From Eledone cirrhosa (Eukaryota), in assembly GCA_964016885.1 (NCBI GenBank), contig OZ024742.1, positions 186,744,001 to 186,808,000 on the forward strand: a stretch of DNA of 64,000 bases, given 5' to 3'. Each line of letters starts with the position of its first letter. Within the stretch, counting starts at the first letter, position 1. The notes beneath the pieces are model-generated. The model was given only the letters and a program-made list of their open reading frames with translations. It was not told the DNA's origin and searched no databases. A program made the translations under genes and the position numbers. Below are positions 8,947 to 59,040 of this stretch, piece by piece.

Positions 8947-9132
8947 GGCGGTGGATTGGCAGTATTGGTTGAGGGTCGGACGCCATGCTTTGACGTATAG
9001 AGTTACGGCCCTTGCCATTCTGAGTTCAAATCCCGCCAAGGTTAACTTTGCCTTTCATCCTTACGGGGTCGATAAAATAAAGTACCAGTAATACACTGGT
9101 TAATTTCTGGCCTTGTGCCTAACGTAGAAACA
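8947..9132 (+). mobile_element. tRNA-derived SINE (S1), full length
   Basis: A-box TGGCAGTATTGG, B-box GAGTTCAAATCC, core GCCTTTCATCCTTACGGGGTCGATAAAAT; TSD ATTATTGAAAAAATGAG at 8930-8946 and 9133-9149. Confidence 0.93.
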
Positions 9133-9194
9133 ATTATTGAAAAAATGAGAGGAGCAATTATTGAAAAAAAAAAAAAGCTTTATAATGTATATAA

Positions 9195-9243
9195 AATATA
9201 ACTGGTTTCGATGTATCAGTATGGACCATCTTATCAAATATTG
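9195..9243 (-). ncRNA. Degenerate hammerhead-like motif
   Basis: ATAT-TTGATAA-GATG...CATC-GAAA-CCAG-TT-ATAT; two core substitutions. Confidence 0.3.
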
Positions 9244-9254
9244 AATATTATAAT

Positions 9255-9340
9255 TAAAAAGAATAAAAAAGAATAAAAAAGAATAAAAAAGAATAAAAAA
9301 GAATAAAAAAGAATAAAAAAGAATAAAAAAGAATAAAAAA
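9255..9340. repeat. (TAAAAAAGAA)n 10-bp tandem repeat, ~8 copies
   Basis: Direct reading. Confidence 0.95.
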
Positions 9341-55200: not shown

Positions 55201-55719
55201 CCTATGGACAACTTCCAGAAATCTCTGTCCTGGCAGTGCTACCGAGGAGCCTTGCCAGTTCGGGATAAACTCTACAGGCATGGAGGTGCCGTCAGCCGGG
55301 CATGTCCGAGATGCGCGCATGGCGACGAAACCGTCCTGCACGCACTCGTCCAGTGTCCGAAAATTGCTGACTTGTGGGTTTATGTCGAACACCTGCTGTC
55401 GCGTTTAGGACGGATCCAGCTATCATCTGAGTCTATCGTGAGGATTGCCCCGCCCTCCTCCTTTAGCCGGGAAGGGCAGGCAGTTTTTATCTGTCTGGTG
55501 GCCATGGCGAAAGAGATAGTATGGTGGACACGTTTGAAAGGGCTGAAGACGAGCACTTACCTCTTCGGTGATGCTCTGATTGACTTTTTCAAATTTCATT
55601 TGAAAAGGAAAATCAGAGTAGAGAGGGAAGTGCTCTCTTCCCAGCATTTTGTTGAAAGATGGGTGAGAGAAGCAAGAATGGCCCGAGTGAATGGGCCGAC
55701 TCTGAGTATATATCTGTAA
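52300..55719 (+). pseudogene. Tx1 ORF2 (APE endonuclease, RT, zinc finger) with one premature stop
   Basis: GSINARGL, SETR, GDWN, YLDRVF, TDH; GKSPGLDG, LDQSKAFDRVDH, VRQGCPLS, YADD; CPRC..ETVLHALVQC; TAG at 54460-54462 where copies 1 and 3 have AAG. Confidence 0.95.
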
Positions 55720-56055
55720 ACTAAAGGTGGAAAACTGGGAGAGGGCACTTGCCTTGGTGGTCAGGGTCATTGTGGCTTTTTACTGGGCTTTCTCCACAAA
55801 TGTCCCTCCGAAGTCTCCCCCCTATTGGGGAATTTTTCATTGTTATTTTCATTGTTATTTTTGTTACATCCTCTGTTTTTGTTTTTTTTACACGCAGAAA
55901 TGCCCATTTGTACCGTCCTGCATTGTCCTGCACTGTCCTTAATGTCTACTTTATGTAAACCCTTGTGGTTAATAAAGAAATCATTATTATTATTATTATT
56001 ATTCAATTATTATTATTATTATTATTCAATTATTATTATTATTAATATTATTATT

Positions 56056-58905
56056 GTTCTTTGAGTCTCAGTCATTGATGTTGGTTAACTGGAAAGTTTG
56101 TTGAAATGAATATCAAGCCACTACCTGCAGCCTCAGATATTCATGGCGTAGCGGAGGGTTCTTGCTGTTCCCAGCAAGCATGCCTTTTGAAGTTTTCCAA
56201 AAAACGGGGCGGGGCCAATTTCCTTTAACCATCCCTGGAAACTCTTTGAGATAGTACCTAGTGCGCCTATGACAATCGGGACCACTTTCACTTCATGGCA
56301 GTTCCGAATCTGTTTTACCTCCCACTCTAAGTCCTGGTATCGGTTAATTTTCTCCCTCTCCTTCTCTTGCACTCTCGTGTCGAATGGGCCGGCCACATCC
56401 ACAATCAGGCACGATCTTTTTTCCTTGTCCAAAACCACAAGGTCAGGTCTATTGTGTTCCAGTTTCTTGTCCGTCTGTATCCTAAAATCCCACAGCACCT
56501 TCACCTGATCGTTTTCTACCACCGACTCTGACTTATGCTCATACCACTTCTCAGAATGTGGTAAATTGTTTACTTTGCATAGGTGCCAGTGGATCACCCT
56601 GCCCATCACATCATGTCTCCAGCCCTTATAGTGAGTCTGGGCTAGGTGTTTACACTCGGATACAATGTGAGCCACAGTCTCCTCTCTCTCTCCACAGATC
56701 CTGCACAGTGGGCTAGCCTCGTCCTTGTAAATATGGTGTTTCAACCACTTCGTTTTGAGGGCCTGCTCTTGCGCAGACATTAACATTCCTTCTGTAGCCT
56801 TTTTAAGGTCTCCTCTTTTCAACCAGTTCCATGTTTGTGGATCTCTGAATTCAGTTTTCTCAAAGAAGGTACTATGAAGGGATTTTTCCTGAAGGCTGCT
56901 CTTTCTCCTTGATGTTATTTCCTCCTTGAACATCCCCTGGTCTATTGTCCCCTCCTTCAGTACAGTTCTGAGCATTGGCTCCTTACTATCAGTCACGTAT
57001 TTGTGTAGGTTGTTTTTCTCCATCTGAACACAGTCCTCTATGCTGATAAGACCTTTTCCACCTTCAGATCTCCTTAAGTAGAGTCTATCGACATCATTCC
57101 TCTTGTGGAACATGTTGTAGATAGTCAATAGCTTCCTAGTCTTCCTATCCATTTCTTTTTGTTCAGCAACATTCCATCTCAGAATTCTCGCACTGTACCT
57201 AATAATAGACACAGCTCGGGAATTTACTGCACTTATGGCATTCCTACTGTTCAGATCTGACTTTAATACGCTCCTTATTCTCCGAATGTATTCAGTTCTT
57301 ATCAATTCCTTCATTTTTTTGTTCTTGATGTCATCAGCCTCCAGAACACCCAAATACTTGTATTCTTCTTCAGAGTCAATTTCCTTTATCATCTCACCTG
57401 TTGGTACCTGGATTCCGTTACTTCTGCTCAATTTACTCCCTCTTCATCACAAGGACTCCACACTTACTAATACCAAATTGCATACATATATCATTGCTGA
57501 AAATACGGACAGTGTCAACAAGCACATCCATCTCCTTCTCACTCTTCCCAAAGAGCTTAAGATCGTCCATGAAGAGAAGGTGATTGATGGTAAGCCCTCC
57601 CTTTCACAACCTGTTTCCTGCTCTCACTTTTCGCAGTACACTGGTCAGGGGCATCAGGGCAAGGACAAACAACAGAGGGGACAGACTATCTCCCTGGAAG
57701 ATACCTCTCTTGATCTTCACGCTTCCCAAGGATTCTCCAGTTGATGTTAACTCTGTTTCCCAGGACTTCATACTTTTGCCCAAAACTGTCTGATGTTATC
57801 TGCCACCTTGAAGATCTCCAGGCTTTTGGTGATCCGAGAATGAGGCACCATGTCAAATGCCTTTTTGTAGTCTATCCATCCCATGGCAAGACCAGTGTGT
57901 CTCCTCTTGCAATTCCTCATTACCATCTTATCAATAAGTAACTGGTCATTTGTACCACGTGACTTCTTTCGGCATCCTTTCTGTTCGTCCGGTAACAAGT
58001 TGTTTGTGTAGAGGTGATGGTAGATTTCCTCAGACATAATGCTTGTCAACAGTTTCCACATTACGGACAGACATGTGATAGGTCTATAGTTGGTAACATC
58101 ATTACCCTTGATTCGGTCTTTCATTATCAGAACTGTGGTATCTTTGTCAACCACTCTGGTACCTCACCTGACATCAAGCAGTCATTGAACATGGTTGTCA
58201 GTTTCGGGTGGAGGGATGTTATATTTTTAATCCAATACCCCTGCACACCATCTGGGCCTGGTGATTTCCAGTTGGTTAGTTTTTTGGCCTGCCCCTTAAG
58301 AGTTTCAACTGTGATACTCAAATCAGTTTGTTGGTGTGCCTATTCACTAATCTCCTTCTGTACTGTTTCAATCCACACTGCCTGGTCATTATGTTTAACA
58401 TCTTGCTCCCATATTCCACTCCAGAATGTTTTAGTTTGTTCCGCCTCAGGGATCAAGTCGTTGCCTCTTTCTTTCACTTCAAGCTCTCCAAACAGTATCT
58501 TCTGGTTGTTGTCGAACATGCGGTTGTCTATACTGACTCTGTTCTCGTATCGCCTGATTTTTGCACTCTTTGCTACAATGCATTGCTTCAGTTCTTCTAT
58601 GATAATATTTAGCTTTTTCCTCCTAGTTTTGTACTTTATTTCCAGTCTATTTTTAGTGTCTATGTTTTTTAGTGTCCCATTCAGTAGGGACTCAAGCTTT
58701 CCAATGTCATTTCTCATTTCCCTGATTTGACCACTCAGTTGTTTCTTCCACCAAGGCTCTGATCTTTCTTGTCTGTTGTTTCCTCTCGCTTTTATACCAA
58801 GTAGTTTCCTCACCGTATTTGCTGTTGCTTTGAGGATATTGTTGCACTGGTGAAGGCTCCTCGCCTCAAGGTATAGGATGACTTTGTTTACCTTAGCTGT
58901 TTACC
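56056..58905 (-). mobile_element. R4/Dong-clade RLE element family C, 5'-truncated, with (TAA)n tail
   Basis: [60 protein letters not shown]; 3' end GAAC-AATAAT. Confidence 0.93.
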
Positions 58906-59040
58906 TCATCCTTACGGGGTTGATAAAATAAAGTACCAGTAATGCACTGGTTAATTGCTGGCCTTGTGCCTAAAGTAGAAACAATTATTATTATTATTAT
59001 TATTATTATTATTATTATTATTATTATTATTATTATTATT
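58906..59040 (+). mobile_element. 3' half of S1 SINE with long (ATT)n tail
   Basis: TCATCCTTACGGGGTTGATAAAAT...GTAGAAAC then (ATT)n 58984-59040. Confidence 0.88.

What the first reader, a model, noticed from the sequence alone, without database searches (positions are those of the whole stretch)
9111..58984. CTTGTG-N8-AGAAA 3' motif shared by the SINE, the Tx1 LINE and an R4 family
Seen: SINE end GGCCTTGTG-CCTAAAGT-AGAAAC-AATTATT. Tx1 ends CCCTTGTG-GCCAATAA-AGAAATC-ATTATT (49635-49663) and CCTTGTG-GTTAATAA-AGAAA (55961-55980). They align without gaps and lie the same distance from an (ATT)n tail. R4 family A has CTTGTG-TCTATGTT-AGAAAC as the loop of a GAGAGAGTC/GACTCTCTC hairpin in its 3' UTR (minus 20947-20984; also near 2315 and 18825). 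Known: SINEs borrow LINE 3' ends. Inference: Tx1 is the partner that mobilises this SINE, consistent with 10-19-bp TSDs at AAT-rich sites. The motif's presence in an RLE-clade element suggests tail capture or a common host-factor site.
Basis: partly seen in the sequence, partly recalled or inferred. Interest (0 to 1): 0.72.

Follow-up and report, generated by a model that had tools for sequence, protein, structure and literature searches.

The report
SINE borrows Tx1 tail; R4 relic
A very abundant short jumping element in this animal genome ends in nearly the same 24 letters and ATT repeat as the Tx1 group of long jumping genes, so Tx1 enzymes likely copy it, while the look-alike inside an unrelated R4 element is likely a captured leftover and not a shared signal.

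Summary
The motif is real: 11 exact hits in the window against 0.02 by chance, and family-wide in the 3.0-Gb genome. In a tail-anchored test of 17 LINE families only the six Tx1 families match the SINE end (14-17 of 24, p<=0.0044; others 6-12). The conserved unit is probably a small CUUGU-loop hairpin with compensatory stems plus AGAAA and (ATT)n, not a fixed 6-N8-5 word. SINE duplications (9-22 bp, mostly starting ATT) argue against CR1 and R4 as partner. A Tx1 lineage is the likely partner (about 0.7). Caveats: the youngest Tx1 family is more strictly (ATT)n-bound and younger than most SINE copies, and the LINE survey covered about 1 Mb. The R4A site is beyond chance but lies 50 nt inside a (CATA)n-tailed UTR, cannot form the pentaloop, is absent from three other R4 families and is broken in a subfamily: likely a captured SINE-tail relic, not a host-factor site.

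The parts
4397..4580 (-). SINE, full length, young form; motif at 4397-4415; 19-bp TSD starting ATT
5896..6072 (-). SINE, near full length; motif at 5896-5914; 10-bp TSD
7328..7508 (-). SINE; motif at 7328-7346; 19-bp TSD
8945..9130 (+). SINE, full length, with A-box-like and B-box-like motifs seen by eye; motif at 9112-9130; 17-bp TSD
30719..30885 (-). SINE, more diverged; motif at 30719-30737
44186..44361 (+). SINE cut inside the spacer (no AGAAA), directly followed by the Tx1a copy
58906..58983 (+). 5'-truncated SINE; motif at 58963-58981; followed by (ATT)19
44381..49657 (+). Tx1 family a (L1-group LINE, broken ORFs; zinc knuckle, APE, RT, zf-RVT pieces); motif 49637-49655, then (ATT)n
49675..49933 (+). 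5'-truncated Tx1 family b copy in the ATT tail of Tx1a; motif 49913-49931
49958..55982 (+). Full-length Tx1 family b (ORF2 with one in-frame stop; 99% identical to an intact copy in L088); motif 55962-55980
59041..64000 (+). Third long Tx1 copy with another 5' leader; runs out of the window and ends with the motif at L032:740-758
20906..24700 (-). R4A, decayed RLE-type LINE with (CATA)n tail; 3' UTR 230 nt
20947..20984 (-). R4A 3' UTR hairpin (-16 kcal/mol) whose apical part is the SINE-tail-like 21-mer (motif 20958-20976), 50 nt before the tail
2259..2582 (-). 5'-truncated R4A copy between CATA runs; motif 2326-2344
18765..19215 (-). 5'-truncated R4A copy; motif with one mismatch at 18833-18851
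25011..28990 (-). R4B, open 1174-aa frame, (CATA)n tail, 81-nt 3' UTR without the motif (negative control)
56056..58900 (-). R4C, (AAT)n tail, lying antisense in the ATT tail of Tx1b; no motif (negative control)

Best explanation
The SINE ends in a 24-nt match to the ends of the Tx1 LINE families followed by the same (ATT)n repeat, and it is likely copied in trans by an ATT-targeting Tx1 ORF2 protein that is predicted to pick its RNA by a small CUUGU-loop hairpin just before the tail; the match inside R4A is likely a captured, decayed piece of SINE tail. Steps: (shown) the last 24 nt are conserved across six Tx1 families whose upstream UTRs have diverged, with stem changes on both sides; (shown) the SINE carries the same loop, a self-complementary stem of its own, AGAAA and (ATT)n; (inferred) ORF2p binds this end, nicks ATT-rich DNA and primes on the (AUU)n tail, with a second nick about 10-20 nt away giving the TSDs; (inferred) the partner for most SINE copies was an older or less strict ATT family such as family c, not only the young family b; (inferred) an R4A ancestor took up about 21 nt of old-type SINE tail into its 3' UTR, by template switch or 3' read-through, where it now forms the tip of a different, longer hairpin. 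My odds: Tx1 lineage as partner 0.7; R4A site a captured relic 0.55; R4A not the SINE's partner 0.9.
For: Tail-anchored identity 14-17 of 24 for 6 of 6 Tx1 families (p<=0.0044) and 6-12 for 11 of 11 other families (p>=0.056). In 970 kb of random DNA, 92 exact motif hits: 85 SINE, 3 Tx1, 2 R4A, 2 one local duplication; no other LINE. Tx1 last 24 nt 71-96% identical between families, upstream 33-71%. Stem pairs in 62 Tx1 ends: pair 1 and pair 2 are C-G in 59 and 60; pair 3 is G-C in 38 and A-T in 19; pair 4 has three pair types in 44. The SINE majority arm has G-C at pair 2. Pentaloop closing-pair probability 0.45-0.95 in six Tx1 ends, median 0.94 in 122 young SINE last-33-mers, 0 in R4A. The young SINE lost about 30 nt just upstream, so the needed signal is about 31 nt or less. 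SINE TSDs: 74 unique (9-22 bp) of 250 scored; Tx1 ATCT group 2 of 20 (12, 19 bp, starting 2 nt after AGAAA as in the SINE); CR1 none credible among 56. Intact Tx1b frames exist (8 of 19 printed have 1100 codons or more). R4A: 21.0 bits, above all 3000 shuffles; 8 of 3,000,000 hairpin-constrained random sequences reach it; closer to the old SINE end (18 of 21) than to Tx1a (14 of 21), counted; old SINE copies (12.3% divergence) predate R4A copies (3.1%); its UTR is 230 nt with decayed CATA repeats against 77-81 nt in R4B and C.
Against: The match is short and has no upstream extension. In whole SINE RNA the pentaloop is predicted in 0 of 4 window copies (probability 0-0.06), and in old SINE ends the median is 0.10; 5 of 37 old ends have a mismatch at pair 2. 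Covariation on six representative ends is weak (15 of 500 shuffles). No unique TSD was found in 50 scored ATT-group Tx1 copies (23 have ATT runs on both sides, 27 none; 61 Tx1 copies were dropped because their 5' end lay outside the locus). Full-length Tx1b follows (ATT)n in 30 of 30; 70% of Tx1b ends but only 10% of SINE ends have five or more ATT units. Most SINE copies (7.7% and 12.3% median divergence) are older than Tx1a/b copies (2.2%, 3.5%); only family c (5.6%, upper quartile 12.4%) overlaps. Part of the Tx1 conservation may be the AATAAA poly(A) signal, which the SINE spacer lacks. Only 17 families, one copy each, were tested. The R4A site lacks the SINE's upstream 10 nt and ATT tail.
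Confidence: 0.62

Rival explanations
1. The true partner is a low-copy LINE that my sample missed; the Tx1 likeness is an older tail or a sister lineage's tail.
For: About 1 Mb of 3 Gb was surveyed. A related octopus has 47 recently active LINE families, among them 13 RTE, 13 CR1, 13 L1-Tx1, Hero and R2 (PMC13282606); I tested 17. Target strictness and age of Tx1b fit the SINE poorly.
Against: No non-SINE element with a longer tail match among 91 short tail hits read with their upstream DNA or in the PWM scan of 1.94 million positions. All Tx1 families carry the end.
Confidence: 0.15
2. Tx1 moves the SINE, but in relaxed mode: only the (AUU)n tail matters, and the 24-nt likeness is an inherited scar of the tail swap with no present role.
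For: Weak folding of the SINE pentaloop in full context; L1-clade elements mostly use relaxed recognition (PMC3747384).
Against: SINE subfamilies change spacer positions while the two flanking words stay fixed; Tx1 families with different tails (ATT, ATCT) keep the hairpin with double changes.
Confidence: 0.12
3. All three families keep the word because a host RNA-binding factor reads it.
For: The R4A match is far beyond chance; 12 columns are invariant in the six-row alignment.
Against: Different position and fold in R4A; absent from R4B, C, D; spacing or loop letters differ in Tx1c, e and others; an R4A variant with CTTGTA holds about 12% of the depth in run X1 and sits in the window (18851).
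Confidence: 0.06
4. The R4A site is coincidence, helped by the fold-back symmetry of its hairpin; only SINE and Tx1 are related.
For: The hairpin constraint raises the chance fourfold; all four R4 families have a UTR hairpin 40-65 nt before the tail; a 15.9-bit look-alike occurs in an unrelated local duplication (L034); the motif was chosen after the fact.
Against: Even so the rate is 2.7e-6 per hairpin, about 1e-3 or less over the UTRs tested (my estimate).
Confidence: 0.25
5. The active CR1 family with an (ATT)n tail is the partner.
For: 7,411 exact ends, many open 945-codon frames, same tail repeat, divergence 5.9%.
Against: End matches only 10 of 24 (p 0.25-0.27); no credible TSD in 56 scored copies: the 9 'unique' calls are tandem repeats or internal duplications and none starts at the tail.
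Confidence: 0.04

Closest known systems
SINEU and Tx1-Mar of crocodilians (PMC4494074, passages)
   Same: A SINE assigned to a Tx1-clade partner; shared target preference.
   Different: There the link rests on shared targets and ages, and no LINE sharing the SINEU-1 3' end was found; here there is a shared terminal sequence and repeat, and the target is a microsatellite.
Stringent L1-clade pairs: maize ZmSINE2/3 with a monocot L1; Chlamydomonas SINEX-3 with L1-1_CR (PMC3747384, passages)
   Same: L1-clade LINE with a conserved 3' hairpin, compensatory stems, shared with a SINE. [quoted passage not shown]
   Different: Plants and algae, poly(A) ends, 45-80 nt shared; here an animal Tx1-type group, (ATT)n ends, about 24 nt.
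ZfL2-1/ZfL2-2 and UnaL2 stem-loop recognition (PMC4176376, passages)
   Same: Model for the mechanism: ORF2p reads the loop specifically and the stem generally.
   Different: L2 clade, tested by experiment; here predicted only, with a 3-4-bp upper stem.
Kibi, Koshi and crocodilian microsatellite-targeting Tx1 families (PMC4494074)
   Same: Tx1-type LINEs inserted in microsatellites.
   Different: Their targets are (TC)n, (TTC)n, (TTCC)n, (TTTC)n; here (ATT)n and (ATCT)n groups.
Dong/R4 clade (PMC7998251, passages)
   Same: RT plus restriction-like endonuclease, microsatellite targets; R4C and R4D end in (AAT)n.
   Different: R4A and R4B use (CATA)n; R4A alone carries the SINE-like 21-mer.
MetaSINE superfamily (PMC4824008, section 9 read)
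   Same: tRNA-type head, central domain and exchangeable tails; partner LINEs stated as unknown there. That this SINE's body is a Meta domain is recalled, not tested.
   Different: No octopus member or Tx1 tail appears in the parts I read; known mollusc partners are CR1, CR1-Zenon, L2 and Nimb (PMC11481361).

Membership tests
SINE | Short, non-coding, high-copy repeat with simple-repeat tail and TSDs | tested here: met
   About 185-215 nt; 198 hits in 970 kb; TSDs in 74 of 250
SINE | [quoted passage not shown] | tested here: inconclusive
   A-box-like and B-box-like motifs by eye; no ARAGORN or Rfam tRNA hit on this SINE; the Rfam hit lies in another SINE
MetaSINE | 66-bp Meta domain | not testable with these tools
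   Consensus is in a figure; supplement file 1 was not held and file 2 has no cuttlefish entry
L1 group / Tx1 clade | ORF1 with zinc knuckle; ORF2 with APE, RT and C-terminal zinc finger | tested here: met
   Pfam (zinc knuckle weak, below cut-off, in copy a only); best solved relative human L1 ORF2p, E 3e-52, against R2 1e-21
L1 group / Tx1 clade | RT phylogeny groups with Tx1L, Keno, Kibi, Koshi | not tested
   No named Tx1 reference came back; the label Tx1 rests on architecture and targeting
L1 group / Tx1 clade | Target-sequence preference | tested here: met
   30 of 30 full-length family b copies follow (ATT)n; 14 of 14 with both ends found are also followed by it
Stringent SINE-LINE pair | Shared 3'-terminal sequence and repeat | tested here: met
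   ATT tail in SINE and Tx1a, b, c
Stringent SINE-LINE pair | Conserved 3' stem-loop with compensatory changes | tested here: inconclusive
   Met in Tx1; weak in whole SINE RNA and old SINE ends; covariation 15 of 500
Stringent SINE-LINE pair | Same insertion signature | tested here: inconclusive
   Both ATT-led; 2 Tx1 TSDs match; Tx1b far stricter than the SINE
Stringent SINE-LINE pair | Concurrent activity | tested here: inconclusive
   SINE 7.7% and 12.3%; Tx1c 5.6%; Tx1a/b 2.2-3.5%; some SINE copies as low as 1.2%, and SINEs sit inside young CR1 UTRs
Stringent SINE-LINE pair | Trans-mobilisation shown, dependent on the tail | not testable with these tools
   Needs a cell assay
R4A as SINE partner | Shared terminus, tail repeat and target | tested here: not met
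   Site 50 nt inside; end 10-12 of 24; (CATA)n tail and flanks
R4/Dong clade | Single ORF with RT and C-terminal restriction-like endonuclease; microsatellite target | tested here: met
   R4B frame: RT, zf-RVT, PD-type motif read; best solved relatives R2; CATA or AAT flanks. Clade placement by tree not done

The most novel reading that the evidence does not exclude
An animal Tx1 lineage uses stringent 3' recognition through a minimal CUUGU pentaloop, this is the engine of the genome's commonest SINE, and an unrelated RLE element later captured the SINE's tail and built it into the tip of its own 3' UTR hairpin, so one signal travelled Tx1 to SINE to R4.
Probability: 0.3. Interest if true: 0.62.

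Novelty: new variant of a known kind. Interest (0 to 1): 0.45.

Why it matters
Tail-sharing between SINEs and LINEs is textbook, but L1-clade cases are rare (3 counted in PMC3747384) and the one Tx1 case I found in print lacks a shared tail (PMC4494074). A 24-nt signal with natural compensatory variants, intact ORF2 copies and two target types (ATT, ATCT) would be a compact system for asking how L1-group proteins choose RNA, and it would name the motor of a SINE with several hundred thousand copies. The R4A site adds a small example of sequence traffic between clades; it does not point to a new host factor.

Tried and rejected
DNA search of the genome with the Tx1 3' end returned nothing, since common words are skipped; pattern counts were used instead. 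De novo clustering of repeats collapsed into one component and was of no use. A Tx1 pattern meant to select short tails did not. L010's longer R4A UTR with a more SINE-like spacer looked like an older subfamily, but its extra part matched only one neighbouring place and that spacer is 3 of the first 100 listed sites: dropped. Metagenome scan: 2 hits, both chance matches in bacterial-looking DNA. Protein searches gave no named Tx1 relative. No RNA holder listed. Runs of two other organisms did not cover the R4A hairpin. The Rfam tRNA hit was first taken for this SINE's head, then found to be another SINE. The idea that the Tx1 motif is a target-site duplication of a SINE tail was rejected: the spacers differ and the Tx1 form is family-wide. 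R4C and R4D were rejected as partners: no match and a tail of opposite polarity. Literature searches showed no paper on an octopus SINE-Tx1 pair or on a SINE tail in an R4 UTR; Repbase, SINEBase and Ohshima and Okada 1994 could not be seen and may describe this SINE; one supplement of PMC4824008 was not held.
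Full report
Setting. The window is G000:C3:186744001-186808000 in a 3.0-Gb animal genome. I take it for an octopus-like genome from recall of the SINE and from a LINE repertoire like that of Octopus vulgaris (PMC13282606, part 1 of 3 read); this is not tested. The window holds seven SINE copies, a stack of four Tx1-type LINE copies, three R4-type families (A, B, C) and Penelope and helicase fragments.

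Observation. The motif has 11 exact hits: 6 SINE, 3 Tx1, 2 R4A; shuffles give 0.02. As these are copies of three families, I tested families. Genome-wide there are 19,051 Tx1-type ends, 56,682 motif-plus-ATT ends (control 1) and 3,984 R4A sites. In 97 random 10-kb stretches, 92 exact hits were 85 SINE, 3 Tx1, 2 R4A and 2 in one local duplication, which scales to roughly 260,000 SINE ends with the exact word. In SINE ends picked by their body, 108 of 147 young and 21 of 37 old ends have it exactly (184 of 228 bodies had a placeable tail).

Which LINE matches the SINE end. From the random DNA and follow-up searches I collected 17 LINE ends, one copy each: six Tx1, four R4, two CR1, four RTE, one Ingi-like (clade names from protein motifs and recall). 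With the tail start as anchor, the SINE's last 24 nt match the six Tx1 ends at 14-17 positions (p<=0.0044) and the other eleven at 6-12 (p>=0.056). No element with a longer match was seen among 91 short tail hits. Tx1 families a, b and c end in (ATT)n like the SINE; others end in (ATCT)n but keep the same end.

What the signal is. Between Tx1 families the last 24 nt are 71-96% identical, the 175 nt upstream 33-71%. The conserved part folds as a hairpin with loop CUUGU. In 62 ends, pairs 1 and 2 are C-G in 59 and 60, pair 3 is G-C (38) or A-T (19), pair 4 is A-T, G-C or T-A in 44 and unpaired in 18. AGAAA pairs with upstream U-rich bases in families a, b and h. The SINE has the same loop with arms GGC and GCC, a double change at pair 2. 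Its young form has lost about 30 nt upstream, which bounds the signal at about 31 nt. Against: in full-length SINE RNA the hairpin is outcompeted in 4 of 4 window copies, old ends fold weakly, covariation over six rows is marginal, and the Tx1 spacer holds AATAAA, which may be kept for another reason. Families c and e have one extra base, and loop letters vary in the ATCT group, so 6-N8-5 is not the rule.

Insertion signature. SINE: 74 unique TSDs of 9-22 bp, 42 microsatellite, 134 none, of 250 scored (9 dropped at edges). CR1: 9 'unique' calls of 56, all tandem repeats or internal duplications on reading, none starting at the tail. Tx1 ATCT group: 2 unique of 20 (12 and 19 bp, starting 2 nt after AGAAA, as in the SINE; a few rows of this group are mislabelled ATT-family copies). 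Tx1 ATT group: 0 unique, 23 with ATT runs on both sides, 27 none, of 50; 61 Tx1 copies were dropped as their 5' end was not held. Full-length family b (1,655 5' ends) follows (ATT)n in 30 of 30. Five or more ATT units follow 70% of 23 family b ends, 41% of 29 family c ends and 10% of 115 SINE ends. Median divergence: SINE 7.7% (young, 111) and 12.3% (old, 32), Tx1a 2.2%, b 3.5%, c 5.6%, CR1 5.9%, R4A 3.1% (subfamily mixing inflates these). So the signature favours a Tx1-type enzyme over CR1 and R4, but family b alone is too strict and too young for most SINE copies.

The R4A site. It lies 50 nt before a (CATA)n tail, and R4A copies sit in CATA runs, so R4A does not fit as partner. The match is still strong: 21.0 bits on a SINE-end profile, above 3000 shuffles, reached by 2 of 3 million random and 8 of 3 million hairpin-constrained sequences. 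It agrees with the old SINE end at 18 of 21 and with Tx1a at 14 of 21. It cannot form the pentaloop (probability 0) and is the tip of a longer hairpin. R4B, C and D have UTR hairpins at a similar distance but not the word. The R4A UTR is three times as long as those of B and C and starts with decayed CATA repeats. A variant that breaks the word holds about 12% of the depth in run X1. The simplest chain is Tx1 to SINE to R4A by capture; chance remains possible; a shared host-factor site is the least supported. No older R4A form was found to date the gain.

Known systems. [quoted passage not shown] Eight searches showed no report of this pair; Repbase and the 1994 octopus SINE paper were not available. 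The system works like a stringent SINE-LINE pair; membership is met for the shared end, open for structure, signature and timing, and untested for function.

Earlier notes. After I had noted the hairpin idea, the look-up showed that this scan reached the same SINE-Tx1 reading on other DNA of this genome many times; that is not independent support. Look-ups by sequence and words showed no note on the R4A site, but unchecked notes on R4 families capturing other repeats' pieces.

Verdict. Observation confirmed; interpretation partly supported; a new variant of a known kind; interest 0.45.

Noticed in passing
window 59182-59205 (+); L044, L111: The 5' leader of the third long Tx1 copy holds a SINE-tail-like site (17.1 bits in the L044 copy) followed by ATT-like letters; it may be another captured SINE end.
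   Followed up: partly
window 44186-64000: Head-to-tail stack: SINE, Tx1a, truncated Tx1b, full Tx1b, antisense R4C, SINE piece, Tx1; most joints lie in ATT tails, which serve as a landing pad.
   Followed up: partly
L125:925-1310: A second SINE with an Rfam tRNA head (32.9 bits) ends like the RTE families with (GAT)n, so another SINE here seems to use another LINE clade.
   Followed up: no
L038, L040, L076, L137, L156, L187: SINE copies often insert in the ATT tail of another SINE and form tandem arrays.
   Followed up: partly
L313, L016, L325: SINE insertions at the same ATTATT site inside the 3' UTR of young CR1 copies.
   Followed up: no
window 25094-28618 (-): R4B has an uninterrupted 1174-aa frame and may be recently active.
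   Followed up: partly
window 662-1900 (-), about 5150-5700 (-), 14365-14889 (+): Penelope-like fragments (weak GIY-YIG hits at 721-1509 and 14365-14889; the 5150-5700 piece by eye).
   Followed up: no
window 34763-35233 (-): PIF1-like helicase fragment (E 2e-14), probably from a Helitron.
   Followed up: no
window 3225-3845 and 19403-20041: 3' parts of an RTE family (RTE3) whose end was seen again in L270-L289.
   Followed up: partly
window 16518-16879, 39991-40289, 7846-8599: Long near-perfect inverted repeats (137-175 nt arms), MITE-like or fold-back elements.
   Followed up: no
window 41930-42674: Tandem array of a 67-71-nt unit, about 10 copies.
   Followed up: no
L034:5819 and 9077: A local duplication with an exact motif match unrelated to any LINE found; a chance-level look-alike (15.9 bits).
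   Followed up: partly
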